From IMG/VR virus record IMGVR_UViG_3300029106_000003, positions 1,317 through 65,316 of that record: 64,000 nucleotides of DNA. One strand, written 5' to 3'. Under the pieces are notes generated by a model. It did not search any database. It was not told the DNA's origin and saw only the letters and a program-made list of their open reading frames with translations. The position numbers were made by a program, and so were the translations under genes. Origin of the DNA: a virus. Below, in pieces: positions 8,143 to 49,165 of the stretch (position 1 is the first letter of the stretch; each line of letters starts with the position of its first letter).

Positions 8143-8143
8143 A

Positions 8144-8732: not shown

Positions 8733-10004
8733 TTAACTGATAATCCCGCTGTCGGGAATGTCGAATGTCACGTTTTTGGATAGTGAGTCGAGTTGGACGC
8801 CGGCCTCGCCCGACGAGGAGACCCCATACACGGAACAGGTCAGGTAATAGGTATGGGCTCCCGGTGGAAGGTCCGGATGTATCGTCCCCAAAGGGATATT
8901 CAAAATGAGAATCCCTGCTCCCTTGTATTCGTAATCATATATCGCGAGGAATCCGGACCCCGAAATGCGGAAGGTGTATTTCTCACCCACCGGAGGATTT
9001 CCGTTCGGAAAACTGATACGCACCTGAAAGTAACTCGAAAGAAAAGTGAAATCCACGATTTTAATCGGGGTATATGTGCTGTTTATCTCGGCTGTCATGG
9101 CTATCGATGTGGGTATGGGGAAATAATCCGCCACGGTGATCTGTTTGTCGACCCCTGTCCAGTATTCGAACGACTTCTTATCGATAAGGAACAATGTCAC
9201 CTTCAAATTCGTCCCTATCGAATCCTCCCCCGGAAATGTGTCGCTCTGTCCGACAGGAAGTATCGGCGGAGTAGTACCGTCACTGAAAAACTTGACCTTG
9301 AAAGCGGAGTACCACACATTGCCCACCCGCAAGGTGGTTACGGTATTTGTCGAGGTATTTGTCAGCAATCGGGCAAAACTGCTTCCATTTCCATCGGTTG
9401 CCAAAATAGCCGGGTAATAATCGCCGATACTCTTGTCGGAGGCCAGCGACAGCCACGACTCGACGGGTACGCCGGTAGGATTCACCGAAGTGTCGTAATA
9501 GTTAATATCGACAAAAAGATACGGCACGTCCGCACTGATTTCGTCAATTTTACTTCCGGTAAGATTAGGTTCCGCATTGTGGTCGTAGCCGTCGAAATCG
9601 CTCAGGCGGCAAAAATCCGTCCCCGAGTGAGGATAGGCGACATAATCGAAAGAGGTATCATGGATAGCGACGATATTCGTGCCGTGCGGTATCGTAGCTT
9701 TCAAGCCATAGCGTATGCCTTGATTCTTATCCGTTTCGCTTCCTTCCCATTGATTGATGTATGTCGTGACCCCGCCGGATTGCTGAGGATAGTTGTCGGA
9801 TAGCGGTGCAGCCTGCGGATAGCGCACGGGTTTATGACGACTCCATTTGTTGATACGTCCCGGACGGCCACCCTGCAACAGGGGACGTTCGAGGGCAACG
9901 ATGTCGGCCACGTCCCATACCCCGTTTGCCGGGTATATTCCCAGCAGATTATACGGGTCGGTTATCGCTACCGGGGCTACGATCTTGTTTTTATCGATGG
10001 CCAT
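8733..10004 (-). CDS. tail or baseplate structural protein
   Basis: 423-aa ORF directly downstream of tail spike gene; beta-rich composition. Confidence 0.45.
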   Translation of the reverse strand: MAIDKNKIVAPVAITDPYNLLGIYPANGVWDVADIVALERPLLQGGRPGRINKWSRHKPVRYPQAAPLSDNYPQQSGGVTTYINQWEGSETDKNQGIRYGLKATIPHGTNIVAIHDTSFDYVAYPHSGTDFCRLSDFDGYDHNAEPNLTGSKIDEISADVPYLFVDINYYDTSVNPTGVPVESWLSLASDKSIGDYYPAILATDGNGSSFARLLTNTSTNTVTTLRVGNVWYSAFKVKFFSDGTTPPILPVGQSDTFPGEDSIGTNLKVTLFLIDKKSFEYWTGVDKQITVADYFPIPTSIAMTAEINSTYTPIKIVDFTFLSSYFQVRISFPNGNPPVGEKYTFRISGSGFLAIYDYEYKGAGILILNIPLGTIHPDLPPGAHTYYLTCSVYGVSSSGEAGVQLDSLSKNVTFDIPDSGIIS

Positions 10005-10008
10005 AGGC

Positions 10009-13000: not shown

Positions 13001-13302
13001 ATGAAAAAAGGCACTTTACCCCATGATATAAATTTCGAATGAAATTGTGGTTTGTATTGAAATTCGACCTCGTTCTTTTGTTTTGGATTATATGGCTCCA
13101 AAAGAGAATATTTCTCACCATCGAGTATAATATAAGCCCCTACCGGAATCTCTTCATTTTGGTCCGAGTTCCACGACAATTCTACATAATCGGATTTCAT
13201 CAATTCCTCTACATGAACACACTCTTCTGTTATAGGAACTGATAAAATAGTCTCTCCTTGTATGTTTTTAATGTCTATCATGATGGTTTCGTATATCTTC
13301 AT
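10009..13302 (-). CDS. tail spike / tail-associated lysin-like protein with C-terminal intramolecular chaperone (peptidase S74) domain
   Basis: 1097 aa; C-terminal SDMRLKRD...LKKELSELKG matches autoproteolytic intramolecular chaperone domain of endosialidase/tail-fibre proteins; GGGGGEGG linker. Confidence 0.6.
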   Translation of the reverse strand: MKIYETIMIDIKNIQGETILSVPITEECVHVEELMKSDYVELSWNSDQNEEIPVGAYIILDGEKYSLLEPYNPKQKNEVEFQYKPQFHSKFISWGKVPFFMYSYDENNEITNREPDWSLTDNPANFMSVICKAIENETGDTWTYAVDSSLNASTSLSFQSIDILSALNSIASAFDTEWWVEKDSMIIHLSKSEHGAVVSLEVGENINTPSVTEGKDGYYTRFYAFGSTRNIVQEYKGANVNNLVNKRLTLDPKKYPNGYKDIRPNLQQGEIFSKILLFDDIYPSSELSISDVRFRLMWRIDSETNDKIQIGTDENGDPIYDQYAIWYFQIPEFNFDNSPYDEEKNPNGMRIPNKEPSVHFQSGALQGMEFELIYHDESKTITSDDGISFEVKKGDFEIKYKEEEGNYIIPAITGLIPSENDDIILFNVKMPEEYTDSAYIRLETAMNEEIERLSSDQNNYQFSSNPVVFDENNPDLSIGRKVEYINAGYSYVTRVISLTTKLDYPFEQTITIGNNLIKGNTQELKEEVASANKNIDLISAINDMTASLQQSYQRTVKQMQEGFARINDMWKFDTELENTIYSKFNVYSQGGISALGVWRGEGGGGGEGGLIKLVYGFDDLGGAFDNATLTDTFNAYTINEIWKLANAGASTIGTGNVVTAISKTGGNIVVTKGITLYDWVQQPNKPTYSLAEINNVSGTYTGLTVGRAVESDNAKKLNGLDNGAFLYKRGGMYETATGNGWLIRTKVEEAEAAMLTLHLIGNGYYSRRIINTIVQAYNYAPNDVEFTATAGTHFGDDLGDVKVFLYGGRVCFWVSAKTDYQTCSIFVYNTYGALNGTCENCVDSISLSPMPAVGVSKLTVVTPSVALTDNDSIAADRLKNIRTIWGNPFDGTGDVSGNLTDVGSISMSGDINGVERIYCSGVVAETGSKRVTIYNGGILATNYLRSNGYITSDGNITAGGDISSQGNISAQGSVTALTTSDMRLKRDFDYTRSYTDRLLAMGRVCDFRYTEKARKRNKGGVDGEAHTGLLYQKVKEVLPSMAYETGDGYGALNYLSPDYINTIAGATQETARLVKALMEDIERLKKELSELKGKGGK

Positions 13303-20787: not shown

Positions 20788-20929
20788 GCAAAATAAATTA
20801 TATTGAGCGCAACTGTGGGGTCGAACCACAACTTTATACATGGAGTGTATATGTGCTACCGTTACACTAGATACGCAGAACACGTGGGTACGAAGCCCCC
20901 ACGTTTGGCTCTATCTACAACCTATTGAA

Positions 20930-26813: not shown

Positions 26814-28325
26814 TCATAAAAAGTCTTTTAGTAATTCTTCGTCACTAATAAAATCATAGTCAAGTGGATAAAATGTATTAGCAAGTGCATCCATATAGTC
26901 AGGCGAACGTTTGATACGTTTCTTGATTTCTTCTTTCGGTTCAATTATAATCCGTCCATCGCTTTGGAACTTCCAGTGTGTCTCGGTTGCTTCCTCCATG
27001 AGTTTATCACAAGGGGGAATAGCCGCCCCAAAACCGTTCTTCGGATTAAGCCAATCACGTAAAGACCAATAGCAGTAAGCTCGCATATTGGCAAATTCAT
27101 ATTGTCCGGTAAGGTCATGCAAGCCTCTTGCACTCTCGGAATACTTGCAAGAATAAACATTCCTATATCCAAGTTCTTCCAGTCGAGAATATACTCCAGC
27201 TCCTTCACCTATTGTATCGATGTACGCTTTGGATTTTTTGTCAGAAAGATATATGATGTGCATTCCTGCGACATGCATGTGATCCGCTTTTCCAGCAGAT
27301 TGGTGAACTTCAAATTTAGGGACATAGTTTCCGTATCGAGGGCAAAGTACACTTTCATCTCGACCCATACCAGCAACATCAGAACCAATCTTACATGATT
27401 TAGACGGTGTAAAACCTTCTTCTTGTAAACGATTCCAATTATCATTTGCAAGCTCTATCCATTCATACGGAATAAGTACATCTTCGGAGACTTTTGGAAA
27501 CATACCAAGTACCTTGACACGAAAAAGGTCATTAGGTCGGTATAGACCACCTTCCCACTTAAAATCACCTTCTCCTTCATTAAAATCTGCCTTCTGAATG
27601 GGAGAACACCAATTTATCACTTTATCTTTTACCCATTCATAATCTACTTGACCGGGAATGACTAATTTCCTTTTGACTACATTCTCTGCATTGAGTGAGT
27701 TTAACCGGAATTTCGCAAATCGATTGGATTTCATGGCTCGTGCGGCATAACCCGTAGTTATGTTAGGATTAAACACGATGAGTAAACGGGAATTTCCCTG
27801 TAAGTTACCTTCAATAGCATTATATGTTGCTTCTGAAATACCCGATGCTTCAGTAACGACGAACATTGTATTCACAGCGTGGAACCCAGACCATGCTTCA
27901 GTATTGTCATCACCAGCCTTAAACCCCGTTAAAAACCATTCTTCATAATCAGTCTTTATACCCGAAGACAACAATCTTCCCGGAAGAAAAACTGCATTTC
28001 TGTACAAGCGTGAGATTTCCGGGATCATAATATTCTGTACCTGCCTTGCTGTTGGTGCAGTCATGGCAATTTTTGTATTCTTGGATAATTTGCCATCTTT
28101 CCAACGTGGAGTGAGGTACATAAAACACATAGCAGCACATGCTGCAACGAAGTCCTTACCACGAGCTGTACCTGATGCAACAGCTGTCATAGGATTGTGC
28201 TGGACAGAGGATATGATAGATTGCTGCTCGCTGTCTAAACGAACCTTCAAAACATCACGGCAAAACCTATTCCAGTCTTCTATCCATGACTTTAAGTAGC
28301 GTATGTCCTTGCGTACATGGCTCAT
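26814..28325 (-). CDS. terL: terminase large subunit
   Basis: ATPase motifs VASGTARGKDF (Walker A-like), LLIVFNP (Walker B), nuclease domain IGSDVAGMGRDESVL / IDTIGEGAGV. Confidence 0.85.
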   Translation of the reverse strand: MSHVRKDIRYLKSWIEDWNRFCRDVLKVRLDSEQQSIISSVQHNPMTAVASGTARGKDFVAACAAMCFMYLTPRWKDGKLSKNTKIAMTAPTARQVQNIMIPEISRLYRNAVFLPGRLLSSGIKTDYEEWFLTGFKAGDDNTEAWSGFHAVNTMFVVTEASGISEATYNAIEGNLQGNSRLLIVFNPNITTGYAARAMKSNRFAKFRLNSLNAENVVKRKLVIPGQVDYEWVKDKVINWCSPIQKADFNEGEGDFKWEGGLYRPNDLFRVKVLGMFPKVSEDVLIPYEWIELANDNWNRLQEEGFTPSKSCKIGSDVAGMGRDESVLCPRYGNYVPKFEVHQSAGKADHMHVAGMHIIYLSDKKSKAYIDTIGEGAGVYSRLEELGYRNVYSCKYSESARGLHDLTGQYEFANMRAYCYWSLRDWLNPKNGFGAAIPPCDKLMEEATETHWKFQSDGRIIIEPKEEIKKRIKRSPDYMDALANTFYPLDYDFISDEELLKDFL

Positions 28326-28687
28326 TCCTCATCATCAGGCAATTCTTGCATCAGTTTCTCAAATGGATTGACAGTAACCTCCTGTTCCAGCCTCTCAACA
28401 TATCCTCTCTCTCGCATTTTGGTCTTACTAAGCCAAATGAGCATTGTGTTGTCTTGTTCTGTCAAAGCCTTTGAGAACATAACAGTTTCTAATTTATCTT
28501 TGAACGCTTCTTCTACTTCCTCCCATTGCTTCCTAAACTCTTCATCTTTCTCTTTCCACTTGTATGCAATGGAACGAGATATTCCGGCTGCCTCACACGC
28601 TTTCGTAACGTTAAGCAGTCTTGCATCAAGTGCATTCAGAAAAATCTCTTTCTTTTTCTTTACAGGAATCCTAAACTTCTGTCCCAT
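28322..28687 (-). CDS. terS: terminase small subunit
   Basis: 121 aa, HTH TKACEAAGISRSIAYKWKEKDEEF, immediately upstream of TerL with overlap. Confidence 0.6.
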   Translation of the reverse strand: MGQKFRIPVKKKKEIFLNALDARLLNVTKACEAAGISRSIAYKWKEKDEEFRKQWEEVEEAFKDKLETVMFSKALTEQDNTMLIWLSKTKMRERGYVERLEQEVTVNPFEKLMQELPDDEE

Positions 28688-29375
28688 CTTTATTTACCTC
28701 CAATACGTTATTTACTATTTCCAACATCTTACAAATGCTTAATGCCTGAGCCTTGATTTTATATTTCGCTTGGACTTTTGCACTGATTTCATTTAAATGG
28801 TGCATGGTTTCCATATCTACAAGAGTAAGATTTCCCAACTCTTTTTCCGAATAACACTCTAGCGTTTCCATGAGTTTGTCGAATGATGCTTTCTGCGTGT
28901 CTATGAACATCAGCGTTACAGGAACAATTTCGTTATTCGGCATTTCTACTGTGTAATTAATATCCTTTACACTTTCCAATACTTCGTTACTGATGTGTGC
29001 GTATTCTTTTAAGGCAACATCAGTTATTTCATCAAGTAGCTGTTTTAATACCTCCGCATCGTCTTGACCAACAATACTGTTGTGACTGAGTTGTGTCGCT
29101 AATAGCCAATCGTTGGAAGTGTTATTCTCATCAATATACATTACGTGAATAGAAGTAAGACCTGCCATCTTTGCTGCCTGTGTTCTATGATTACCACTGA
29201 CAACTGTATATGTACCATCATTATGCTTTACACAAAATGGAACAGATGAAAGCTGCCCATCTCTACGGATATTATTAACAAGTGCATTAAATGTGTCATT
29301 GCTCATAAAATGAGCATTCTTCTTGACAAATTTAATGTCAGAGAGTTGAACTTCCTCAATTTTAAATTTTTTCAT
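28671..29375 (-). CDS. ParB-like nuclease domain protein
   Basis: VVSGNHRTQAAKMAGLTSIHV ParB/Srx N-domain motif; start MKKFKIEE. Confidence 0.6.
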   Translation of the reverse strand: MKKFKIEEVQLSDIKFVKKNAHFMSNDTFNALVNNIRRDGQLSSVPFCVKHNDGTYTVVSGNHRTQAAKMAGLTSIHVMYIDENNTSNDWLLATQLSHNSIVGQDDAEVLKQLLDEITDVALKEYAHISNEVLESVKDINYTVEMPNNEIVPVTLMFIDTQKASFDKLMETLECYSEKELGNLTLVDMETMHHLNEISAKVQAKYKIKAQALSICKMLEIVNNVLEVNKDGTEV

Positions 29376-29376: not shown

Positions 29377-31464
29377 TTACTCCTTTCTAGGTTCGTTACC
29401 ATATTTCTGTACAAATGCTTTTAAAATCTCATCTAAATTTCCACGAATACCTGAATCTTGAATATAGTGAAGTTTACCAACGCATCTTTCATGTAACTTG
29501 AATACTCCCCGATACTTCATACTTACGGGCTTATCAGTAAACACAGAAGTGGCAATTATACCACATTCATGCTTGTATCTTATATTCAATTCCTCTTTAA
29601 ATTCAGTTGAAAGCACACCTGTAATAAGTAATCTGCTTAGCTTTGGTATAGTATGGTCTATCACAAAATCTGACTTCATCCAAACTGCATCCATGCCGTA
29701 TTTGCTGACTTTTAAGAAATCAAACATACAAGCTCCAAATACGTAATTATCTAAGAACCATAAATAGCAGAATGGAGCCGAGCCTAATACTATACCTTTC
29801 TTCAAATATATCATACGTAGATAATCTATCTCTGACATAGAAGCACGCATAAAACGAAATTTGCTATTTTCAGAAATGGAATAATCATCTGGTAAACGTT
29901 TGTACTTTAATGGAGTAATAGCACGTTTATTAAAACTGCTATCACCAGTACTACTTACATTGGAATAAATATAAGTTCTCTGGTCTTTGAATACCTCTCT
30001 GCGTCCCATGAAACCATGTTGCGACAATGCCATGTAATTCACCTGCTCTTCATCTATCTCAGAATATTTTGTACGGATTCTTTCTTGCCAACCGAAATCA
30101 TTCAACAAGAAGCGTTGTAAAGCATTGCTTGTAGCTTTCATACCGGAATGAAACTCATTCTGATAAATCAAAATATCATTTTCATTGCAATTAAGTATAG
30201 CATCCGAAATATCAGCACAATACAGAACTTCAATGTTCTTTGATTTCAGATTATCAACGAGTTTCTGATAACGTTCTGTGTATTTCTTCTTGTAGTAATC
30301 TAAACGGGACACGAAGTCATCATATAGTGACTTATGGTAAATATCCTGTGAGTTCTTATGCTTTTTTATGGCATTGAAAAGATGAATAACAGCTACCATT
30401 TCGGAAGGATTGTCCGACTGTAAATCCATGAAACTATACTCGTCGTTGAAACGTAGCTCTTTTATCTCTCCCTTAATAGCTTTATACATAAGATAGATAA
30501 AATACTCTTTCGTATATACCTTTATCTCACGGTTAGTAAGCACTTGTTCTATATCCATGTAGTATGAGTTTACCACATGGGCGACATCAAATCTTGAAGC
30601 CTCTTTTTTGATGAAAGAAAGCATCCGGTTTGACTTCTTGAACATAGAGCCTACTACCGTAACATTATCCGAGTGTTCTGCCGCCCAAAGTAGCGGTTTA
30701 TGTCTTTGGGGAACTTTGGAATAGTCAATATGAAACACCTCAAGACACTTATCAATTGTGGAGAGTTGCTTATACTCTTCTATATTTTCATGCAGGTAGG
30801 CATACTCTACAAATGAATACATGAATTTGATTGTCTCCAATACTTTATCAAAGTTCCATGAACTGTTGAAGATTCTGAACTCTGCCGTGCCAATCTTGGC
30901 AATGGAACATAAATTGAGCCAATACCTGATATGTCCCCTGTCTGAACCATTGTTGAATACTTTTAGTAGGTTGTCGATATTATCAGCTTCTAGCACACGT
31001 TTCACCACATCATATGGAGGGCTTGGCACGAGGTATTTTGTTTCCCACCACTCGGCTATATCGAATATCCGCTTGATTGGATATGCTGTATAGTAGGAAA
31101 GGACAAACATACGCTTGATAACATTCAAATCCATATCTTTGATATACAGATGTGCGTCAAAGCCTTCATTCCACATGAGGTAACTTCCTGCATCTTTCAT
31201 TGTTTTGATGAAGCCTTTCAACTCCTGTAAGTCTTCCACACAATAATGGTATGGACGAGTGTTTATCTCGCCACCAAATTGACCGTGGTGTGTGACAGCC
31301 GAACCGTCCGAGTTATTCATCATGGTTAGCTTGTTGTCCGTCCATTTATAACCGACTGGAAGGGAAATGCATTGTTTGTCTCCATCGGCAAACTCCAATT
31401 CCATGCCAAACGTGCGGTTGGCAATGTAATCAATCCACGGCTTATCTATATTCATGTTCTGCAT
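29377..31464 (-). CDS. large protein with amidoligase-like (GCS2/glutamine-synthetase-fold) N-terminal domain
   Basis: N-terminal RTFGMELEF (TxGxExE first strand of carboxylate-amine ligase fold), HH pair; about 400 aa of unassigned C-terminal sequence; overlaps neighbours at both ends. Confidence 0.4.
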   Translation of the reverse strand: MQNMNIDKPWIDYIANRTFGMELEFADGDKQCISLPVGYKWTDNKLTMMNNSDGSAVTHHGQFGGEINTRPYHYCVEDLQELKGFIKTMKDAGSYLMWNEGFDAHLYIKDMDLNVIKRMFVLSYYTAYPIKRIFDIAEWWETKYLVPSPPYDVVKRVLEADNIDNLLKVFNNGSDRGHIRYWLNLCSIAKIGTAEFRIFNSSWNFDKVLETIKFMYSFVEYAYLHENIEEYKQLSTIDKCLEVFHIDYSKVPQRHKPLLWAAEHSDNVTVVGSMFKKSNRMLSFIKKEASRFDVAHVVNSYYMDIEQVLTNREIKVYTKEYFIYLMYKAIKGEIKELRFNDEYSFMDLQSDNPSEMVAVIHLFNAIKKHKNSQDIYHKSLYDDFVSRLDYYKKKYTERYQKLVDNLKSKNIEVLYCADISDAILNCNENDILIYQNEFHSGMKATSNALQRFLLNDFGWQERIRTKYSEIDEEQVNYMALSQHGFMGRREVFKDQRTYIYSNVSSTGDSSFNKRAITPLKYKRLPDDYSISENSKFRFMRASMSEIDYLRMIYLKKGIVLGSAPFCYLWFLDNYVFGACMFDFLKVSKYGMDAVWMKSDFVIDHTIPKLSRLLITGVLSTEFKEELNIRYKHECGIIATSVFTDKPVSMKYRGVFKLHERCVGKLHYIQDSGIRGNLDEILKAFVQKYGNEPRKE

Positions 31465-32317
31465 ACCTCAACTTAACTAAGGATTTATAATTGGGAATGA
31501 ATGTAACAATGTCTCCGATACAATAATCAGAACTGTCACCGTATACTTTCATTATCGTGTATTCGCTTGAGCTGTTAGAAAAGTCCAAATGGTTATCAAG
31601 GCAACGACATTCCCCCATATCAGCCATTGAATAACCGCAATCAAGTAGTATTTGATTCCGCTCAGGGTAAATGCCGATAACTTCTGTATGCAACTCGATA
31701 CCATTTAACCCTAACTTTTCATCATCGCTGTTATATGGGATTGTGCCAAATAGCATATATTCTCCAATGCGCACGTCGCTTATGAATTTAGGTAGATCTT
31801 CATTCTGTCCTAACCAAAAACTACCACCTAAACTGATAGATTCAATGTAACTATTCAGCTTAGACCATATTTCACACAATCGTTGCATATTCGGCCTGTT
31901 TCCATTTAGGCAACCGGAAGTAATCATACCATAAGCGTGAGAATTATCATCGCATTTACGAACCGTATTAGCAATCTGTCTTGCTTCAAATAGGCTTACT
32001 CCCTCTCTGTTGTCGAAAGCATTGATGGGAATATATATTTTTTTAATACCCTTATTTACTACACAATCCATTGCTTCATACGCAGTAACAGTTACTGTCC
32101 CTTTCTGATTATGAATTGCTTTTCCAATAGAGTAGCACACGCTATCTTCAAAGTGAAGCGAGAAAATGTCATTATCAACCCTATAATGGATATGTCTCCA
32201 AATATCCTCATAGAAGTCTTTGAACATGAGAGAGACAGGGACATTCACAAGCGTTTCCGCTTTCTTGATGTTCTTTATAACATTATCAGTATATATGATT
32301 ACTTTCATAGCTCCCAT
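31442..32317 (-). CDS. hypothetical enzyme (possible Cys-nucleophile hydrolase/transferase)
   Basis: 291 aa; YGMITSGCLNGN and LLDCGYSMADMG motifs; operonic with amidoligase-like and GNAT genes. Confidence 0.35.
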   Translation of the reverse strand: MGAMKVIIYTDNVIKNIKKAETLVNVPVSLMFKDFYEDIWRHIHYRVDNDIFSLHFEDSVCYSIGKAIHNQKGTVTVTAYEAMDCVVNKGIKKIYIPINAFDNREGVSLFEARQIANTVRKCDDNSHAYGMITSGCLNGNRPNMQRLCEIWSKLNSYIESISLGGSFWLGQNEDLPKFISDVRIGEYMLFGTIPYNSDDEKLGLNGIELHTEVIGIYPERNQILLDCGYSMADMGECRCLDNHLDFSNSSSEYTIMKVYGDSSDYCIGDIVTFIPNYKSLVKLRYAEHEYR

Positions 32318-33204
32318 TTTAAAATGATACGTTCAGCTCCTTTGTATTTCGTATCTCGTTTGAATGAGAACCCGACATTGGTGAAACTTTTTATGCTTGC
32401 TTCATTTTTAGGAGAGGTCATTGCAAATATCTCTTGTGCACCATTAGAAACCAATTTTGCGATATTCGCATTGAGAAGGAGGTACTGGAATCCATTTCCT
32501 CTGTAACCAGAACAGACAAAACATTTGTCGACGTATGCCGTACCGTATTCCGTAAAATAAGCAAGCGAGTAGGCTACAAGAGAACCGTCTAGCAATAAGC
32601 CATAACTGCAACCGGATTGCAAACATTTAGTTATATCCTGTGGTTCTGATGCAAAGCAGGTTTCAGGATTCGAGAGCATGGTTTGTTCCATTGCTTCAAT
32701 TTCAGAAATGTCAGACATGGACAGCGTTTTGATTTCCATCTTACACTCAATGCTTCCTATATCAGTGGGAAACAAAGGATCATATCTGTCTATCCATGCT
32801 TTAGATAGGAATACATCAATATCTGTTTGAGGTAGTAATTTTCTTCTGTAATTTTCAAAAATACCTAATACAAACTCTTTATGCTTAGTTAGTTGTTCAT
32901 TCTTCAAAGGGCACTTACCACTACGAAAAACAAAGCCTTTATTCACTGATTTTATCCACAATGGATAGGTACGACACATGATAGGTTTATAGCCGTTATC
33001 ACATGATTTGCAGTTTTTAGCGATACATTTTACCTTTTTACCGCCAAAATAATCATTATCTATAATTTGTAAATGGGATATTTCCTGTTCGTGTCCAGCA
33101 AATTCATGGGGTAGAATAACAATATGTCCGTCCGATCCGAACGAACAACATTTCCAACCGCAACCGGAGTTTTCGCATGCTCTTATTAGTCCTTTATCGT
33201 ACAT
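32305..33204 (-). CDS. YkgJ-like Cys-cluster domain fused to GNAT acetyltransferase
   Basis: N-terminal CENSGCGWKCC...CIAKNCKSCDNGYKPIMCRTYP (UPF0153 CxxCxxCC-like); C-terminal GYRGNGFQYLLLNANIAKLVSNGAQEIFAMTSPKNEASIKSFTNVGF (GNAT motif A/B). Confidence 0.5.
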   Translation of the reverse strand: MYDKGLIRACENSGCGWKCCSFGSDGHIVILPHEFAGHEQEISHLQIIDNDYFGGKKVKCIAKNCKSCDNGYKPIMCRTYPLWIKSVNKGFVFRSGKCPLKNEQLTKHKEFVLGIFENYRRKLLPQTDIDVFLSKAWIDRYDPLFPTDIGSIECKMEIKTLSMSDISEIEAMEQTMLSNPETCFASEPQDITKCLQSGCSYGLLLDGSLVAYSLAYFTEYGTAYVDKCFVCSGYRGNGFQYLLLNANIAKLVSNGAQEIFAMTSPKNEASIKSFTNVGFSFKRDTKYKGAERIILKWEL

Positions 33205-33426
33205 ATTCTTGGGTTGTATATAACTTCATATACATTTTGTGTTAAATCTGCCGAGCGTATTCCCGGCAGACTTAAACACAAATTCAATCATTCTTCAAGC
33301 TACTTACAAGAACACTTATGCAATTCTTCGGCTTCTTTCAGTCGTGTCAGATAGCAATTTCTATCACCCCGTAAACTGCACAAGCTTTAATGTTCTTGCT
33401 TTTGCTTATCGCTACTATAAGGGTTG

Positions 33427-33496
33427 AGCGGAAACAGGGAATCGAACCCCACTCTTTGGTTGGAATGCCAACGCTCTGCCGATGAGCTATTTCCGC
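33427..33496 (-). tRNA. tRNA-like gene with atypical anticodon arm (TCC/TTC region; possible 8-nt loop)
   Basis: GCGGAAATAGCTCATCGGCAGAGCGTTGGCATTCCAACCAAAGAGTGGGGTTCGATTCCCTGTTTCCGCT: good acceptor, D and T arms (TTCGATT) but anticodon stem-loop cannot be folded as canonical 5-bp/7-nt. Confidence 0.5.
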
Positions 33497-33574
33497 AATA
33501 TGGGCAGCCTGCAAACCGTTTATCAGAATTTCCACTGCCCTTCCTTGTACTTCGGTCGTTATTTCTTATCTCTG

Positions 33575-33647
33575 AGGTTGAAGTGGGATTCAAACCCACG
33601 AATAACGGTTTTGCAGACCGTTGCGTTAATCACTTCGCCATTCAACC
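33575..33647 (-). tRNA. tRNA-Cys (GCA)
   Basis: GGTTGAATGGCGAAGTGATTAACGCAACGGTCTGCAAAACCGTTATTCGTGGGTTTGAATCCCACTTCAACCT: acceptor 7 bp, anticodon stem ACGGT/ACCGT, loop CTGCAAA, T-loop TTTGAAT. Confidence 0.7.
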
Positions 33648-33727: not shown

Positions 33728-34132
33728 TCAAAACAAACTCGCTTGTTCATAATTGGGCTCTTTCTTCTCAACAACTCCAAATTCTGTGATTTCAATACCA
33801 GTATTTTCTGTGATCCATTTTGCCAAAATATGGCGATGGCAGAAATCACCCGGTTTTTCGTAGCAACAAAGAGCAACGTCTTTTCCTCCGCTTAACATTT
33901 CAATTTGTTTCACGACTTGGTTCGCATCTTGGCTTGCCAATATTCTGTCGTAAAGTTTTAGGTATTCATCGTGGGAACAAGGTCCACTTACCATATAACG
34001 AGTCGGGCAAACATTCAGCATTTGTGGAATACCAGCTATAAATCTGGGTTTTCCGATTGCTACGCAAATCATATTAACTTCCGCCTCTTTCAGTTTTCGG
34101 ATATTACCGAAATACGATGTAAAAATCTTCAT
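33728..34132 (-). CDS. DUF488 family protein
   Basis: MKIFTSYFGN...GKDVALCCYEKPGDFCHRHILAKWI conserved DUF488 signature; longer ORF start overlaps promoter palindrome. Confidence 0.5.
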   Translation of the reverse strand: MKIFTSYFGNIRKLKEAEVNMICVAIGKPRFIAGIPQMLNVCPTRYMVSGPCSHDEYLKLYDRILASQDANQVVKQIEMLSGGKDVALCCYEKPGDFCHRHILAKWITENTGIEITEFGVVEKKEPNYEQASLF

Positions 34133-36823: not shown

Positions 36824-37465
36824 TTACCCCCATAATTTTACTGCAAGATCATAATTCTTTTGAGCTTCATTTACTGCTTTTTTGGCATAAGTAAGAGTGT
36901 AGGAGTGTTCACGTGGATATTTGCCTGACTTTACACCTTCATGATATTCTTTGGCTTCTTCCAGCTTGTGCGCATAAAAGTCAATACTTTCCGGCATAGA
37001 TAGGTTGATGGTTGTAGCACGCTTGTCCCAGTATTCGGCTTCTCTTTCATGTTCTGTTGCTTTGTCGCTAAATTCAACGCTTTTACCCATGTTTCTCCAA
37101 GCATCCGCTATTGCTTTTCTGTGTCGTCTTTCGCTATGATGTCCTATTTTAATAGGTTCTCCAAGTGAAAGAAAATCTCTGTCCTTATTTGACTTTTCGA
37201 AATATTCATGACTTTTTTTATTTGCTGATACAGACCATTCACGTCTACGTTCGGCTCTACGTTTTGCCCATTCTTGTACGTTGAATCCGTCAGCCCTTAC
37301 GATGGAGTAATAATAGAATCCGTCACGCTCAAATATCAGATTAAAAACGATACTTTCATTCTCTTTTCCATACTTGGTTGTAACTAGAATTTCCTCACCT
37401 CTTTCGTGCTTTTCTTCGCACTTTGCCAAAAATACGTTTGGCGCAAACTTGTAATATGTGTTCAT
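36824..37465 (-). CDS. DUF3560-like protein
   Basis: IKIGHHSERRHRKAIADAWRN motif. Confidence 0.45.
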   Translation of the reverse strand: MNTYYKFAPNVFLAKCEEKHERGEEILVTTKYGKENESIVFNLIFERDGFYYYSIVRADGFNVQEWAKRRAERRREWSVSANKKSHEYFEKSNKDRDFLSLGEPIKIGHHSERRHRKAIADAWRNMGKSVEFSDKATEHEREAEYWDKRATTINLSMPESIDFYAHKLEEAKEYHEGVKSGKYPREHSYTLTYAKKAVNEAQKNYDLAVKLWG

Positions 37466-38695: not shown

Positions 38696-39457
38696 ATGAA
38701 CGAGGAAATAACAAAGCTATTACTTCAATGCGACACGTTGAAAGCCCGTTTGTTGGGGCTGCGCCCATTACCACCGGATGCCCTGCAAAAGATAGAGAAT
38801 GCGTTTGCCATTGAATACACCTATGAAAGCAACCGGATCGAGGGAAATACGCTCACACTGCAAGAAACGGAGTTAGTAGTGAACGAGGGGGTTACTATCG
38901 CCGGAAAGTCAATGCGGGAACACCTTGAAGCGATTAACCACGTTGAAGCGATAGACTACATAAAGGACTTTGCAAAGGGAGGTATGGAAATATCGGAGCG
39001 CACAATCAAGGAAATACACGCTATTGTGCTACATGGCATAGACAGAGAGAATGCCGGACGTTATCGGGGCGTGCCTGTTATGATTTCGGGAAGTACACAT
39101 GTCCCTCCACAGCCGTATTTGATACAACCACAAATGGAGGCTTTTATGACAAGGTTTTCCGGAATGGAGGAGCAGGGCATTCACCCGGTGCTCATTGCGG
39201 CTTATCTTCATGATGAGTTGGTACGAATACACCCGTTTATAGACGGGAACGGGCGCACATCTCGGCTTCTGATGAATCTATACTTACTCCGCAACGGTTA
39301 TACGCTGGTAAATCTCAAAGGCAGCAACGAGGACAAAATAAGCTATTACAAGGCACTGGAAGCCTCTCATACGGAGAACAATCCGGCAGAGTTCCAAAAG
39401 GTCGTTATACGGGCTGAAATAGAATCTTTAAGCCGGTATCTCTCAATTGTAGGATAG
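38696..39457 (+). CDS. Fic/DOC family protein (class II, auto-inhibited)
   Basis: HPFIDGNGRTSR catalytic motif; N-terminal SNRIEG inhibitory (S/T)xxxE(G/N) motif. Confidence 0.8.
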   Translation: MNEEITKLLLQCDTLKARLLGLRPLPPDALQKIENAFAIEYTYESNRIEGNTLTLQETELVVNEGVTIAGKSMREHLEAINHVEAIDYIKDFAKGGMEISERTIKEIHAIVLHGIDRENAGRYRGVPVMISGSTHVPPQPYLIQPQMEAFMTRFSGMEEQGIHPVLIAAYLHDELVRIHPFIDGNGRTSRLLMNLYLLRNGYTLVNLKGSNEDKISYYKALEASHTENNPAEFQKVVIRAEIESLSRYLSIVG

Positions 39458-42253: not shown

Positions 42254-43168
42254 TCATAATAGAGCTAATGCTTGTGTTACAATCGGTGTTAGTTGATTTG
42301 CTGCTATTCCCGTAGCAATACCTTGTATAGCGTTCAATGCCAATTTTAAGGTTTTCTTACCCCAAGATGGTTTATTACACTCTTCTTTTATCGTATCAAT
42401 TGCCATTTTTAGGTCTGAATTATCTATATCACTTGCTTTTTCTACAAGCTGAGAGATTACACTTTGTAGTTTTTCTTTTTGATCTTGGTCTGATATATAT
42501 AATGTAAGATCACTGTCTGAAATATTTCCTGTATTGACATTACCATCTCCTGTATTAGCTACTACTGAATTAATATAATAATTATTCATAATATTACTTA
42601 TCACTTTTTGTTCTTCAATTTTCGAAAAATCAATACCTGCATCAATTTTTTCGTCTAAATCTAGAAAAAATGATAACAGCTTTGACTTAAATTTATCAAC
42701 AATACACACCAATGAAGACACTGAGAACTCCTGCCATACTTTTTCTACATTCCCAGAAACATATTTGTTTACTTCGGTATATGCCATTGATGGAGAATTA
42801 ATAGATACATTGCCAGTTTTTTGGCTACTGCCTATATTTTCTATTTCGTTTAGTGAATGAACAATGCACACATGACTCATGCAATCATTTATGATAGCAT
42901 TATCAAAAATACCTTGAGGAATTATGATGTTTTGATACATTCCCACAAATGGTTGTGAAACATTGGCCTTTACAATAGCATTGAGAATTCTATAATCTGG
43001 AAGGTTTTCTGCATCTGGATATCCATTTTGTTCGTTTCTTATCCACATTTCAAAGTCATTATTACCCAATTTGGATGCGACTATCTGAGCTTTCAATAAT
43101 ATACCTTTAATCGGCTTATCATCGCCTAAGTCTTGAATGATTTTGTTTATTATCTCTTTCATAAGCAT
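42254..43168 (-). CDS. AbiTii-like abortive-infection family protein (candidate)
   Basis: N-terminal ILLKAQIVASKLGNNDFEMWIRNEQNGYPD resembles AbiTii N-domain; AT-rich island. Confidence 0.45.
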   Translation of the reverse strand: MLMKEIINKIIQDLGDDKPIKGILLKAQIVASKLGNNDFEMWIRNEQNGYPDAENLPDYRILNAIVKANVSQPFVGMYQNIIIPQGIFDNAIINDCMSHVCIVHSLNEIENIGSSQKTGNVSINSPSMAYTEVNKYVSGNVEKVWQEFSVSSLVCIVDKFKSKLLSFFLDLDEKIDAGIDFSKIEEQKVISNIMNNYYINSVVANTGDGNVNTGNISDSDLTLYISDQDQKEKLQSVISQLVEKASDIDNSDLKMAIDTIKEECNKPSWGKKTLKLALNAIQGIATGIAANQLTPIVTQALALL

Positions 43169-44232
43169 TATTTCATTCGAAAAATATTCATAGGAATAAC
43201 CTTCGGTTTACAGACAAACCAATTAATAAAATCAGCCTTATTAATGCGCATCACACTCATTAAATCCTCATCGGTATATCCTAATTCGTTTCGATACAAA
43301 TTTAGTGTTTCTTCCCACATCGTAGGATGTTCTACAGGAAGAGGTATTGGTTCAATTCTACTATATCCTTTTTTGGAAAAGTATATTTGCAAATTACGAT
43401 ACTGCTGATATGTAATAGCGTCCAAGTCCCTAGCCCTTCTAACTAAAGCATGCATAGATACTCGCCATTTTCTTTTGAGTATACCTAATATTTGTACATT
43501 CAAATTTTGCAACATTGGAAAAATTTCCTCCTCTGGCATTAAAAATTCTGAAGCAAATTCATCCGCTTGACGTTCTGCATCATCAGAAGAACAAGGCGGA
43601 TTTTCTAAATGCATCACCAAATGTCCTAACTCATGAGCCATTGAGAAGCGAATTCTGTCATTAGGCATTTGATTGTTAATAAACATTACTTTCTTATCGG
43701 AATCTGTTATTGTTGTTAATCCATCTATTTTATCGGTTCCAAAATCAAAACGAATAATAATAACACCGTTATTTTCAAGCAATGTTGATAAATTGGGAAC
43801 TGCACCATTGAAAACTTTTAGTTTATATCGTATATTACGAGCAATTTCTTTAGCTGACAAATTTTCATTTGGGATATAATTACCTAAAGTGTATTCTGGC
43901 AATTCAACAGCAGACATTAATTCATCAATGATCGCTTTAAAAATCTTTACTTTGGCAACAAAAGAATCTATTATTTTATTTGTAACAGTAAGTTTCTTTC
44001 TATAATAGAGATGCCCTAGTGGAGAAATCCCTTCACTACGCATAAAAAATGTTTCGGGAAAATCGTAGTATTTACACAATTTTTCCATTATATCTCTTGG
44101 TAGCTCTTGAAGTCCGTGCTCGGCTTTCGATAAAGACGATTGAGATATTCCTACAGCCTCAGCAACTTCTTTTTGCGTTTTTTGCCTTAACAATCGAACT
44201 GTTTCAAGTAATGAGAAATTTATATTATTCAT
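43168..44232 (-). CDS. XRE HTH fused to ImmA/IrrE (M78) metallopeptidase
   Basis: HTH QKEVAEAVGISQSSLSKAEHG; HEXXH MAHELGHLVMH. Confidence 0.75.
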   Translation of the reverse strand: MNNINFSLLETVRLLRQKTQKEVAEAVGISQSSLSKAEHGLQELPRDIMEKLCKYYDFPETFFMRSEGISPLGHLYYRKKLTVTNKIIDSFVAKVKIFKAIIDELMSAVELPEYTLGNYIPNENLSAKEIARNIRYKLKVFNGAVPNLSTLLENNGVIIIRFDFGTDKIDGLTTITDSDKKVMFINNQMPNDRIRFSMAHELGHLVMHLENPPCSSDDAERQADEFASEFLMPEEEIFPMLQNLNVQILGILKRKWRVSMHALVRRARDLDAITYQQYRNLQIYFSKKGYSRIEPIPLPVEHPTMWEETLNLYRNELGYTDEDLMSVMRINKADFINWFVCKPKVIPMNIFRMK

Positions 44233-48664: not shown

Positions 48665-49165
48665 CTATTGTACAATTTCCCAGTCTTCTGCAAACACATC
48701 ACTGATGGATGGTACCCACGAATCAGCACGTCCCGTATTTTCGTTATAGATAAGGCATTGGCTTGTATAGTCAATAAAACCTTTTCCTTTCAGAATAAGG
48801 TCTTTTGCTGATTGAGGAAGCGATTGCATCTTGGGAATGGTATCGCTTTCAATATGTGCAGGCACTTGCTTGAATACCGTCAGGCCTTTGCCGTTCCAGC
48901 CGTTTCTACGGATAGCCCCACCTTGCTTCAAAACTTCGATAGCATCACCGAAACACATAGGAGTTTCTTTCTTGACTTCTCGATATGATTCTTCAAACAA
49001 TTCTTTGGGGGACCAACTTTCATAGCCATATTCAGCACGAGTGTGATATCCAAGCTTGCAAGATTCATGCTCTCCTATTTCACTTTTTACCAAACCTTTA
49101 CGGCAAGCTTCGCCTAATGTCATAGGTTCTGCTTCAATCTGTTTTGTGCTAATGTACTTTTTCAT
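48665..49165 (-). CDS. DUF2829-like phage protein
   Basis: FGDAIEVLKQGGAIRRNGWNGKGL signature. Confidence 0.45.
   Translation of the reverse strand: MKKYISTKQIEAEPMTLGEACRKGLVKSEIGEHESCKLGYHTRAEYGYESWSPKELFEESYREVKKETPMCFGDAIEVLKQGGAIRRNGWNGKGLTVFKQVPAHIESDTIPKMQSLPQSAKDLILKGKGFIDYTSQCLIYNENTGRADSWVPSISDVFAEDWEIVQ

What the first reader, a model, noticed from the sequence alone, without database searches (positions are those of the whole stretch)
29377..33204. Phage-borne amidoligase-like / unknown enzyme / Cys-cluster-GNAT cassette fused to the packaging operon
Three overlapping minus-strand genes sit between two phage tRNA genes and ParB-TerS-TerL. The first is a YkgJ-like Cys-cluster plus GNAT acetyltransferase. 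The second is a 291-aa enzyme-like protein with SGCLNGN and LLDCGYSMADMG motifs. The third is 695 aa with an N-terminal TFGMELEF carboxylate-amine-ligase (GCS2/Amidoligase_2-like) signature and a 400-aa unassigned C-terminus. The overlaps are 13, 23 and an ATGA junction. Amidoligase plus GNAT combinations in phages are predicted to make modified amino-acid/peptide metabolites or to hypermodify nucleotides or DNA. Placement immediately before ParB-like and terminase genes suggests a DNA or packaging-linked modification. This is a candidate for an uncharacterised phage modification system.
Basis: partly seen in the sequence, partly recalled or inferred. Interest (0 to 1): 0.78.

Follow-up and report, generated by a model that had tools for sequence, protein, structure and literature searches.

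The report
Phage tRNA-linked DNA hypermodification module
A gut Bacteroidales phage carries a conserved gene set (a three-domain enzyme, a ParB-like partner, a DUF488 protein, two amino-acid-tailoring enzymes and its own crippled glycine-tRNA look-alike) that most likely attaches a glycine-derived group to the phage's DNA, a chemistry so far shown only for phage Mu.

Summary
The three overlapping minus-strand genes are real, but they are the variable part of a larger module. ORF C (695 aa) has three domains: a GS-like amidoligase, a degenerate Dam-fold domain, and a GNAT domain whose best structural match among GNATs is phage Mu Mom, the Gly-tRNA-dependent adenine N6 modifier. ORF B looks like a fold-type III PLP enzyme. 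ORF A is an N-alpha-acetyltransferase-like GNAT with a Cys-rich N-domain.

The conserved core is DUF488, a tRNA-Gly-like RNA, the Dam-fold/GNAT protein and ParB. It recurs in more than 580 viral contigs:
- ParB lies directly downstream in 76 of 78 diverse loci.
- DUF488 lies upstream in 41 of 60.
- A tRNA-like gene sits in the module in 14 of 26 protein clusters (50% identity), always on the same strand.

These RNAs keep the bacterial GlyRS identity set (G1-C72, C2-G71, U73, C35C36). Many have 5- or 6-nt anticodon loops. The window copy (33426-33496) has a 6-nt loop that is conserved in 66 related contigs.

Best reading: a Mom-analogous, ParB-assisted, tRNA-Gly-dependent DNA hypermodification. 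In this phage the amidoligase, PLP and acetyltransferase activities would elaborate it further. None of this has been tested biochemically. Interest is high.

The parts
33728..34132 (-). DUF488 (DUF488-N3a) protein, 134 aa from the ATG at 34132. It is the upstream member of the conserved module.
   Evidence: Pfam PF22751 scores 38.1 bits against a cutoff of 27. The start is read. A DUF488 gene lies upstream of the Dam-fold/GNAT gene in 41 of 60 eligible diverse loci and in all tri-domain loci examined. No solved homologue is found by sequence.
33574..33647 (-). Canonical tRNA-Cys(GCA). A variable neighbour, probably not part of the system.
   Evidence: ARAGORN and Rfam (66 bits) call it. In close relatives this slot holds tRNA-Cys, Phe, Ser or nothing, while the next tRNA stays constant.
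33426..33496 (-). tRNA-Gly-like RNA with a 6-nt anticodon loop (AUUCCA). It has G1-C72, C2-G71, G3-C70 and U73, and no encoded CCA. Proposed dedicated, non-decoding glycyl carrier.
   Evidence: Rfam tRNA scores 47.4 bits against a gathering score of 29. ARAGORN reports a 2-nt 'anticodon'. The 6-nt loop is kept in 66 related IMG/VR loci, including a 78%-identity relative with different stems. Covariance-model searches find equivalent elements in 14 of 26 clusters of module proteins, and 34 of 34 hits are on the module strand. Covariation supports the cloverleaf. Identity elements are counted.
32785..33204 (-). ORF A N-terminal Cys-rich domain (about residues 1-140). Probably metal-binding; optional in relatives.
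   Evidence: C10, C15, C19, C20, C60, C68, C77, C98 and H44 are invariant. It carries CGxxCC and YKPxxCRxYP motifs reminiscent of YkgJ, but has no Pfam hit at E<=10 and no hhalign match to E. coli YkgJ. It is a separate ORF in L005 and absent in L069, L076, L087 and L089. Part of the model has low confidence.
32308..32757 (-). ORF A C-terminal GNAT acetyltransferase domain (about residues 150-299), N-alpha-acetyltransferase-like.
31442..32317 (-). ORF B, a short (291 aa) fold-type III PLP-dependent enzyme-like protein (alanine-racemase / D-Ser dehydratase / D-Thr aldolase superfamily).
   Evidence: NCBIfam ornithine racemase Orr E=8.7e-9. Pfam D-ser_dehydrat 21.7 bits against a cutoff of 22. 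A weak profile hit to D-serine dehydratase 3anu. K33 and the R183-I-G-E motif are invariant. Source names include 'predicted amino acid racemase' and 'type III PLP-dependent enzyme'. No structure was predicted.
30715..31464 (-). ORF C domain 1 (about residues 1-250): glutamine-synthetase-fold carboxylate-amine ligase (Amidoligase_2).
30025..30687 (-). ORF C domain 2 (about residues 260-480): Dam-fold (N6-adenine methyltransferase-like) domain that has lost its cofactor and catalytic motifs.
29380..29997 (-). ORF C domain 3 (about residues 490-695): GNAT-phage-like domain with a Mom-like fold and no acetyl-CoA P-loop motif.
28671..29375 (-). ParB-like (ParB/Srx N-domain) protein, 234 aa, with a G61-N-H-R64 box II motif. 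The obligate partner gene.
   Evidence: Pfam ParB_N scores 25.7 bits; phrog_7405 E=1e-54; several ParB-like PHROGs also hit. The start is read. A ParB-like gene lies immediately downstream of the Dam-fold/GNAT gene in 76 of 78 diverse loci and in cultured Gordonia and Mycobacterium phages.
26814..28687 (-). TerS (28322-28687) and TerL (26814-28325). Downstream context, not a conserved part of the module.
   Evidence: PHROG terminase small and large subunit hits. The terminase families that follow the module differ between relatives (Terminase_6N, Terminase_3). In the actinophages no terminase is adjacent.

Best explanation
The region is a phage DNA hypermodification module that works in the manner of phage Mu Mom.

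**Core components.**
- A tRNA-Gly-like RNA. It would be charged by the host glycyl-tRNA synthetase, because it keeps G1-C72, C2-G71, U73 and C35C36. It is unfit for decoding, because its anticodon loop has 6 nt.
- The Dam-fold plus GNAT-fold part of ORF C.
- The ParB-like protein.
- DUF488.

**Proposed steps.**
1. The GNAT-like domain takes the glycyl group from the charged RNA.
2. It transfers the group to an exocyclic amine of a DNA base, most likely N6 of adenine presented by the Dam-fold domain.
3. The ParB-like protein loads or activates the enzyme on DNA late in infection, next to the packaging genes.
4. In this Bacteroidales-phage lineage, three further activities tailor the amino-acid moiety. 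They are the fused ATP-dependent amidoligase domain, the PLP enzyme (ORF B) and the N-alpha-acetyltransferase-like GNAT (ORF A). They could act on the carrier RNA or on the DNA. Possible reactions are N-acetylation of the glycyl alpha-amine, C-alpha chemistry, or amide ligation of a further carboxylate or amine.

**Shown here:** the folds, the domain order, the synteny, the conservation and covariation of the tRNA-like element, and its identity nucleotides.

**Inferred:** charging by GlyRS, glycyl transfer, DNA adenine as the target, the role of ParB, the order and chemistry of the tailoring steps, and anti-restriction as the biological purpose.
For: 2. **Mom precedent.** Mom transfers glycine from Gly-tRNA-Gly to N6-dA in dsDNA (PMC13219725).
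3. **No CoA motif.** The ORF C GNAT domain lacks the acetyl-CoA P-loop motif that ORF A has.
4. **tRNA-like element.**
   - It is conserved in 66 close relatives while the neighbouring tRNAs vary.
   - Covariance-model searches find equivalents in 14 of 26 clusters (50% identity) of the protein family. These include Mycobacterium phage Argie (an annotated tRNA-Gly) and Gordonia phage Sting (unannotated).
   - 34 of 34 hits are on the module strand. 32 of the 34 hits lie inside the module, nearly all just upstream of the enzyme gene and a few just after ParB.
   - Of the 24 distinct sequences aligned, all keep G1, C2, G71, C72 and CC in the anticodon loop, and 23 have U73. That is the bacterial tRNA-Gly identity set (PMC9976931).
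   - 12 of 24 have anticodon loops of 5, 6 or 9 nt, and others lack U33 or have C37.
   - Covariation: 92% of cells are paired against 64% in shuffles. The covariation score is 0.69 against 0.18, with 0 of 500 shuffles reaching it.
5. **ParB.** A ParB gene is directly downstream in 76 of 78 loci. ParB-like proteins activate phage thymine dioxygenases (PMC13229309) and accompany CmoX and DNA methyltransferases.
6. **Tailoring precedents.** PLP enzymes and acetyltransferases sculpt amino acids already attached to DNA (PMC8989533). An ATP-dependent amide ligase acts on a DNA base handle (PMC12783734).
7. **Co-occurrence.** GNAT and PLP genes occur only with the amidoligase-fused form.
Against: - There is no biochemical or mass-spectrometric data for any member.
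- Mom's essential HTH-like insertion and catalytic residues could not be mapped.
- The Dam-fold domain lacks the (D/N/S)PP(Y/F) motif, so adenine specificity is a guess. In ORF C even the family's own motifs are gone.
- About half of the protein clusters, and the 71%-identity relatives of ORF C, have no detectable tRNA-like element. They would have to use host tRNA.
- The role of DUF488 is unexplained.
- The amidoligase substrate is unknown. A glycyl group that rearranges as in Mu would leave no free amine or carboxylate to ligate.
Confidence: 0.5

Rival explanations
1. The module acts on the tRNA rather than with it. The GNAT-like domain would acylate or acetylate Gly-tRNA-Gly, as the TacT and AtaT toxins do, or the proteins would modify or repair tRNA-Gly. 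The phage tRNA-like RNA would then be a substrate, decoy or antidote used in host takeover or counter-defence.
Against: The best methyltransferase matches are the DNA Dam family. The obligate partner is a ParB-like DNA-associated protein. A decoy role does not explain the fusion to a Dam fold or the amino-acid-tailoring enzymes. Bacterial toxin GNATs were not the top neighbours.
Confidence: 0.15
2. One reading: the amidoligase, PLP enzyme and GNAT make a modified amino acid, peptide metabolite or peptide tag on a protein, for example a virion or host protein. DNA is not the target.
For: Amidoligase_2, fold-type III PLP enzymes and N-alpha-acetyltransferase-like GNATs are all typical small-molecule or peptide enzymes. 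Aminoacyl-tRNA-dependent GNAT-fold transferases also modify peptides, lipids and natural products (PMC13219725).
Against: The amidoligase is covalently fused to the Dam-fold/GNAT-phage-like unit. That unit is tied to ParB in 76 of 78 loci. The core family exists without any of the three tailoring activities.
Confidence: 0.12
3. The Dam-fold/GNAT protein is simply a ParB-associated DNA methyltransferase, as annotated in some actinophages. The nearby tRNA-like sequences would be incidental tRNA genes or remnants.
For: Gordonia phages Sting and Jollymon annotate the homologue as a '(DNA) methyltransferase'. The two-domain family keeps GxSG and ND motifs that resemble SAM-binding motifs I and II. 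ParB-methyltransferase fusions are common in phages.
Against: The catalytic (D/N/S)PP(Y/F) motif is absent from the whole family, which has [FY]-x-P-T-Y. ORF C has lost the glycine-rich and ND motifs as well. The conserved GNAT domain is unexplained. The tRNA-like elements are strand- and position-specific, glycine-specific and selectively maintained with aberrant loops.
Confidence: 0.08
4. The odd tRNA is a translational device. It could be a frameshift-promoting or doublet-decoding tRNA-Gly used for phage gene expression, or a remnant of a tRNA attachment site. It would be only loosely linked to the enzymes.
For: Mutant tRNA-Gly(UCC) species can promote frameshifting (my own recollection, not checked here). 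Phage tRNA genes cluster, and the neighbouring slot is a tRNA swap site.
Against: The equivalents in other lineages have 3-5-nt loops, degenerate D or T arms, A33, C37 or A34. These features are unlikely to work on a ribosome. The linkage to the enzyme gene spans Bacteroidota-type and actinobacterial phages. The elements are full-length and sit far from any integrase.
Confidence: 0.07

Closest known systems
Phage Mu Mom (Pfam PF25680; PDB 8BV8): Gly-tRNA-Gly-dependent glycylation of N6-adenine in dsDNA, which rearranges to N6-carbamoylmethyl-dA
   Different: There is no detectable sequence similarity. Here the GNAT is fused to a Dam-fold domain and, in this lineage, to an amidoligase. It has obligate ParB-like and frequent DUF488 partners. 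It often brings its own non-canonical tRNA-Gly-like gene, whereas Mom acts alone with host tRNA-Gly. Extra tailoring enzymes are present. No product is known.
ParB-dependent phage thymine dioxygenases (5mYOX/ParB pairs; PMC13229309)
   Same: A phage DNA base-modifying enzyme is encoded next to a ParB-like protein that it needs. The pair often lies near terminase genes and hypermodification enzymes.
   Different: The enzyme class (Fe/2OG dioxygenase) and the target (thymine C5-methyl) are different. No tRNA is involved. ParB dependence is inferred here, not tested.
Thymidine hypermodification clusters of phages M6, ViI and PaMx11 (5-HMUDK, amino-acid:DNA transferase, PLP decarboxylase, acetyltransferase; PMC8989533)
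   Same: An amino acid (glycine or serine) is appended to a DNA base and then sculpted on the polymer by a PLP enzyme and/or a GNAT acetyltransferase. Amidoligase genes have been noted in such clusters.
   Different: Those systems use free amino acids and a phosphorylated 5-hmdU handle. No kinase, aGPT-Pplase, hydroxymethylase or TET/JBP gene was identified in the module or among the other window genes scanned against Pfam. The PLP enzyme here is fold-type III and racemase-like, not a decarboxylase family member.
CmoX/CmoY (5-carboxymethylcytosine plus an ATP-dependent glycine amide ligase; PMC12783734)
   Same: An ATP-dependent amide ligase elaborates a DNA base adduct. ParB-domain genes are frequent neighbours.
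   Different: CmoY is an asparagine-synthetase-type AMP-forming ligase, not a GS-fold Amidoligase_2. The handle is installed by a C5-methyltransferase homologue using Cx-SAM. Neither CmoA nor CmoX is present here.
Non-proteinogenic tRNA-Gly isoacceptors of staphylococci that feed FemXAB peptidoglycan bridge synthesis
   Same: Dedicated tRNA-Gly species are kept for a non-ribosomal glycyl transfer by GNAT-fold transferases.
   Different: Those are cellular genes with altered T arms and normal anticodon loops, and the acceptor is a peptidoglycan precursor. Here the RNAs are phage-encoded, often have truncated anticodon loops, and are linked to a presumed DNA-modifying enzyme.
Pfam PF22555/PF22556 (DAM-like-phage1/2) plus PF22559 (GNAT-phage-like); PHROGs 7858 and 2443
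   Same: ORF C belongs to this catalogued but uncharacterised family.
   Different: The databases give only fold-type names ('amidoligase enzyme', 'unknown function'). I found no paper that cites these accessions or describes the module.

Membership tests
Pfam GNAT-phage-like (PF22559) | Profile match above the gathering score | tested here: met
   87.1 bits against a cutoff of 27, residues 534-663. 90.3 bits for the isolated C-terminus.
Mom family (PF25680) | Sequence match to the Mom profile or to the Mu Mom sequence | tested here: not met
   Mu Mom scores 253 bits on PF25680, while the ORF C C-terminus gives no hit at E<=10. hhalign of the family profile against Mom gives probability 0.1%.
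Mom family (PF25680) | GNAT fold closest to Mom | tested here: met
Mom family (PF25680) | Essential residues (R111, S124, R151) and the HTH-like insertion 175-209 | tested here: inconclusive
   Invariant S610, D599 and K650-Y651-R652 are candidates. No structural superposition was possible with these tools.
Mom family (PF25680) | Uses Gly-tRNA-Gly as donor and dsDNA adenine N6 as acceptor | not testable with these tools
   The evidence is genomic only: tRNA-Gly-like genes in 14 of 26 clusters.
Dam-type N6-adenine DNA methyltransferase | Rossmann methyltransferase fold of the Dam family | tested here: met
Dam-type N6-adenine DNA methyltransferase | SAM-binding motif I (FxGxG) and catalytic motif IV (D/N/S)PP(Y/F) | tested here: not met
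   ORF C has VVNSYY and YQNEF at the aligned positions. The wider family has GCSGNF and [FY]xPTY, without the polar catalytic residue.
Amidoligase_2 (PF12224) / GS-fold carboxylate-amine ligases | Profile match above threshold, GS-like fold, conserved metal/ATP-binding acidic and basic residues | tested here: met
GNAT acetyltransferase (PF00583), ORF A | Profile match, GNAT fold, Q/RxxGxG/A acetyl-CoA motif | tested here: met
YkgJ / CxxCxxCC (PF03692), ORF A N-domain | Profile match or profile-sequence similarity to YkgJ | tested here: not met
   No Pfam hit at E<=10. hhalign against E. coli YkgJ gives probability 0.1%. Only motif resemblance remains: CGxxCC against CGxCC, and YKPxxCRxYP.
Fold-type III PLP enzymes (alanine racemase / Orr / D-Ser dehydratase), ORF B | Profile match above the curated cutoffs; PLP-binding lysine | tested here: inconclusive
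   NCBIfam Orr E=8.7e-9, but 34.9 bits against an equivalog cutoff of 480. Pfam D-ser_dehydrat 21.7 against 22. PDB 3anu E=0.017. K33 is invariant. No structure model was made.
ParB/Srx N-terminal domain (PF02195) | Profile match; GxxR box II motif | tested here: met
   Pfam 25.7 bits against 26.3, which is borderline. phrog_7405 E=1e-54 and ten ParB-like PHROGs. TIGR00180 E=2.9e-8. G61-N-H-R64 is present.
tRNA (Rfam RF00005) | Covariance-model score above gathering; cloverleaf supported by covariation | tested here: met
   47.4 bits against 29. Across the module-linked elements, 92% of cells are paired and 0 of 500 shuffles reach the covariation score.
Canonical decoding tRNA | 7-nt anticodon loop with U33 and a purine at 37 | tested here: not met
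   The window element has the 6-nt loop AUUCCA. 12 of 24 distinct family elements have loops of 5, 6 or 9 nt. Others have A33, C37 or A34.
Bacterial tRNA-Gly identity set | G1-C72, C2-G71, U73, C35, C36 (PMC9976931) | tested here: met
   All are present in the window element. In the family, G1, C2, G71, C72 and CC are present in 24 of 24 and U73 in 23 of 24. Actual charging cannot be tested here.

The most novel reading that the evidence does not exclude
A widespread, undescribed class of phage DNA hypermodification systems. It has at least 1,300 protein clusters at 50% identity and occurs from gut Bacteroidales phages to mycobacteriophages. In it, a phage-encoded, non-decoding tRNA-Gly mimic serves as a dedicated aminoacyl carrier. 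A ParB-activated Dam-fold/GNAT-fold enzyme uses this carrier to aminoacylate a DNA base. In the lineage seen here, the DNA- or RNA-bound glycyl group is then built into a larger N-acetylated or peptide-like adduct by a fused amidoligase, a PLP enzyme and an acetyltransferase. That would be a new DNA base chemistry and the first case of a virus encoding a tRNA purely as a cofactor for DNA modification.
Probability: 0.35. Interest if true: 0.93.

Novelty: new variant of a known kind. Interest (0 to 1): 0.85.

Why it matters
tRNA-dependent DNA modification has been shown for a single enzyme, Mu Mom, published in 2026.

- **Breadth.** If this module works as proposed, the chemistry is not a Mu oddity. 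It would be a broad strategy carried by an unrelated-in-sequence, multi-component system found in hundreds of viral contigs.
- **tRNA genes.** It would also explain a class of 'broken' phage tRNA genes. They would be cofactors rather than decoding tRNAs.
- **ParB.** It would add a second enzyme class, after the thymine dioxygenases, that depends on ParB-like proteins.
- **New base.** It points to a probably new hypermodified base in abundant human-gut Bacteroidales phages. That bears on restriction and CRISPR evasion, on sequencing artefacts, and on phage engineering.
- **Testability.** Cultured carriers exist in M. smegmatis and Gordonia phages, so the prediction can be tested directly.

Tried and rejected
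- **Megablast against cultured phages.** Searching 26.8-34.2 kb gave no match. The lineage is known only from metagenomes and prophages.
- **Sequence searches of the PDB.** The ORF C family profile, ParB and DUF488 gave nothing.
- **hhalign of the GNAT-phage-like profile against Mu Mom.** Both global and local modes gave no signal. A claim of Mom-family membership was dropped and only the fold resemblance is kept.
- **YkgJ assignment of the Cys domain.** Neither Pfam nor hhalign supports it.
- **Literature searches.** Searches for the Pfam accessions and names, for DUF488 with ParB or with phage DNA modification, and for tRNA-dependent hypermodification with ParB found no description of this module. 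The Iyer et al. 2009 and 2013 papers could not be opened.
- **Thymidine-hypermodification cluster, considered and rejected.** No 5-hmdU kinase, aGPT-Pplase, dUMP hydroxymethylase or TET/JBP was found in the module or among the other window genes scanned against Pfam.
- **Packaging function, considered and rejected.** Adjacency to the terminase is not conserved in the actinophages.
- **Odd tRNA as an assembly error or recent pseudogene, considered and rejected.** The same 6-nt loop is seen in 66 independent contigs, including a diverged relative with compensatory stem changes.
- **No tRNA-like element found.** None was detected in L001, L076 or L087 even with the filters off.

Full report
**1. 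The observation**

The three minus-strand ORFs exist as described.
- ORF A is 32305-33204 (299 aa).
- ORF B is 31442-32317 (291 aa).
- ORF C is 29377-31464 (695 aa).
- A and B overlap by 13 nt, and B and C by 23 nt.

The ORF C stop and the ParB start are arranged TAATATG, with the ParB ATG at 29375. The ATGA overlap is between TerS and TerL. Two tRNA genes lie just upstream, at 33574-33647 and 33426-33496. Further upstream is a DUF488 gene (33728-34132).

All three proteins have many conserved homologues. ORF C has 58, ORF B 141 and ORF A 58. Nearly all come from metagenomes. A protein identical to ORF A is on 492 contigs up to 1.56 Mb, and a close relative is in Paraprevotella xylaniphila. 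The element is therefore a common temperate phage of gut Bacteroidales. No cultured phage matches at the DNA level.

**2. What the proteins are**

Pfam agrees. Amidoligase_2 scores 29.8 bits and GNAT-phage-like PF22559 scores 87 bits. DAM-like-phage1 is a sub-threshold hit.

The amidoligase domain keeps the acidic and basic residues typical of the fold: E22, E24, E66, H105, R180, E195 and R197, invariant in 29 sequences. The GNAT-like domain has invariant D599, S610, S648, K650, Y651, R652 and Y667. It has no Q/RxxGxG/A acetyl-CoA loop.

At the sequence level it is not a Mom family member. It gives no hit to Pfam Mom PF25680 and no hhalign signal.

*ORF B.* It resembles fold-type III PLP enzymes: ornithine racemase E=8.7e-9, and a borderline match to the D-Ser dehydratase C-domain. 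K33 is invariant.

**3. The real unit is larger**

Gene neighbourhoods of diverged ORF C homologues (30-49% identity) show the same order: DUF488, then (GNAT, PLP), then ORF C, then ParB, then terminase. The terminase families differ between these loci.

Residues 260-692 of ORF C align over their full length with a much larger family of roughly 430-460-aa proteins (hhalign E=2.7e-59). These have only the Dam-fold and GNAT-like domains.
- A whole-library profile search gave 1,382 representatives at 50% identity. About 28 are tri-domain and most are two-domain.
- IMG/VR holds at least 586 two-domain loci and 190 tri-domain loci.
- Cultured members are Gordonia phages Sting, Soos, Jollymon and Clawz, and eight Mycobacterium phages including Argie, Taptic, Jeon and D12. 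In these the gene is annotated 'hypothetical' or 'DNA methyltransferase'. In every record examined it is followed by a 'ParB-like nuclease domain' gene.

I built HMMs from the session's alignments and scanned 80 diverse two-domain loci.
- A ParB-like gene is immediately downstream in 76 of 78 eligible loci.
- A DUF488 gene is upstream in 41 of 60.

The GNAT and PLP genes occur only with the amidoligase-fused form. They are never in the two-domain loci. The Cys domain is optional even there.

The Dam-fold domain of the two-domain family keeps the GCSGNF, SND and [FY]xPTYxGGYE motifs, but lacks the polar catalytic residue of (D/N/S)PP(Y/F). ORF C has lost all of these motifs.

**4. The tRNA-like element**

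ARAGORN reports the second upstream tRNA (33426-33496) as having a two-base 'anticodon'. Rfam scores it 47 bits. It has a 5-bp anticodon stem in relatives and a 6-nt loop, AUUCCA.

- The same element, with the same 6-nt loop, is present in 66 of 68 IMG/VR loci whose ORF C is at least 78% identical. The other two lack upstream sequence.
- The tRNA beside it changes between Cys, Phe, Ser and none.
- A normal tRNA-Gly(UCC) sits at the equivalent place in a 44%-identity tri-domain locus (L008) and in Mycobacterium phage Argie.

I built a covariance model from 11 such sequences and a second from its hits, then searched 90 diverse loci (765 kb, both strands).
- The search gave 34 matches, all on the module strand.
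- 32 of the 34 lie inside the module, nearly all just upstream of the Dam-fold/GNAT gene (usually between DUF488 and it) and a few just after ParB. The other two are ordinary tRNA-Met genes kilobases away.
- With filters off, an unannotated element also appears between gp27 and gp28 of Gordonia phage Sting. It has the same acceptor stem as Argie's tRNA-Gly, U73-CCA, a long anticodon stem with a CCC loop, and a degenerate T arm.

In all, 14 of 26 clusters (50% identity) of the module protein carry such an element.

The cloverleaf is supported by covariation. 92% of cells are paired, against 64% in shuffles and 40-50% when the partners are slid. There are 147 double-sided changes against 45. The covariation score is 0.69 against 0.18, and 0 of 500 shuffles reach it.

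Of the 24 distinct module-linked sequences aligned:
- all keep G1, C2, G71, C72 and a CC in the anticodon loop;
- 23 have U73;
- 12 have anticodon loops of 5, 6 or 9 nt;
- others have A33, C37 or A34.

G1-C72, C2-G71, U73, C35 and C36 are the experimentally defined identity set of bacterial tRNA-Gly. U73 with G71 is unique to tRNA-Gly (PMC9976931).

**5. How it most likely works**

Mu Mom was recently shown to take glycine from Gly-tRNA-Gly and put it on N6 of adenine in dsDNA. The glycyl group then rearranges to carbamoylmethyl. Mom probably recognises the acceptor end (PMC13219725).

The system here combines four things:
- a GNAT of Mom-like fold without a CoA motif;
- a Dam-fold domain;
- a ParB-like partner;
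- in many lineages, a private RNA that keeps exactly what GlyRS needs but not what a ribosome needs.

ParB-like proteins are proven activators of phage thymine dioxygenases (PMC13229309). They are frequent companions of DNA methyltransferases and CmoX. DUF488-ParB fusions exist in archaea.

I therefore propose a ParB-assisted, tRNA-Gly-dependent aminoacylation of a DNA base, probably adenine N6. The phage RNA would act as a dedicated, non-decoding glycyl carrier.

The three activities peculiar to this lineage are all chemistries of an alpha-amino-acid moiety: an ATP-dependent amide ligase, a PLP enzyme and an N-alpha-acetyltransferase-like GNAT. They co-occur as a set. Precedents exist for a PLP enzyme and an acetyltransferase acting on amino acids already attached to DNA (PMC8989533), and for an ATP-dependent amide ligase acting on a DNA base handle (PMC12783734). 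They probably convert the glycyl group into a larger adduct. One attractive option is acetylation of the glycyl alpha-amine, on the RNA as TacT does or on the DNA. That would block the Mu-type rearrangement. The order, substrates and product are speculation.

**6. Weak points**

- There are no experimental data for any member.
- The Mom link is at fold level, with a small Z margin.
- The target base is a guess, because the Dam-fold domain lacks canonical motifs.
- Roughly half of the clusters show no tRNA-like element, and neither do the 71%-identity relatives of ORF C.
- DUF488 and the Cys domain remain unexplained.
- ORF B was not modelled.

Rival readings are scored in the structured fields: the module acts on tRNA-Gly; it makes a metabolite or modifies a protein; it is a plain methyltransferase; the tRNA is a translational device.

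**7. Novelty**

Pfam and PHROGs already catalogue the domains under fold-type names. Public records call the protein an 'amidoligase enzyme'. I found no paper describing the DUF488 / tRNA-Gly-like / Dam-fold-GNAT / ParB module or citing those accessions.

I rate it a new variant of a known kind, namely tRNA-dependent, amino-acid-based phage DNA hypermodification. It is of high interest, and cultured mycobacteriophages and Gordonia phages are available to test it.

Noticed in passing
window 49498-50898 (-) versus 26814-28325 (-): An SPP1-type portal gene lies about 21 kb upstream of the large terminase rather than next to it. The window may therefore hold two phage-like elements or an unusual gene order.
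   Followed up: no
window 38696-39457 (+), 42254-44232 (-), 48665-49165 (-), 54426-54962 (-): A cluster of defence or anti-defence-type genes: Fic, AbiTii, IrrE-type metallopeptidase with HTH, Tad2-like (Thoeris anti-defence) and SocA/Panacea antitoxin-like.
   Followed up: no
window 60805-61935 (-) and 55792-56325 (-): A C5-cytosine DNA methyltransferase and a small methyltransferase-like ORF. The phage therefore carries other DNA-modification genes besides the module.
   Followed up: no
window 20805-20876 (-): A canonical tRNA-Gly(UCC) lies among the structural genes. The phage thus has both a normal tRNA-Gly and the 6-nt-loop tRNA-Gly-like copy.
   Followed up: partly
window 33574-33647 (-); loci L010-L086: The slot next to the odd tRNA is a tRNA swap site. 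In close relatives it holds tRNA-Cys(GCA), tRNA-Phe(GAA or AAA), tRNA-Ser(GCU) or nothing.
   Followed up: partly
L003 5470-5541 (Gordonia phage Sting PQ201089.1, about 12801-12872): An unannotated tRNA-Gly-derived element lies between gp27 and gp28. Its acceptor stem is identical to that of the Mycobacterium phage Argie tRNA-Gly. It has U73-CCA, a 7-bp anticodon stem with a CCC loop, and a degenerate T arm.
   Followed up: yes
L097 2037-2105, L130 6199-6276, L165 2750-2822: In three lineages the tRNA-Gly-like element sits just after the ParB gene instead of before the enzyme gene.
   Followed up: partly
window 1-4000 and 8000-12000: GC content is 0.47-0.51 here against about 0.37 in the rest of the window. 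This includes the 1097-aa ORF at 10009-13302.
   Followed up: no
L001 7274-8017 and 6910-7290: In the most distant tri-domain lineage (30% identity), the PLP-like gene is N-terminally shortened (247 aa; hhalign probability 97.6%) and the GNAT is reduced to a weak 126-aa remnant. The tailoring genes may be decaying there.
   Followed up: partly
window 36824-37465 (-): A DUF3560 protein (E=6e-42) lies upstream of the module among small early-type genes. Its function is unknown.
   Followed up: no
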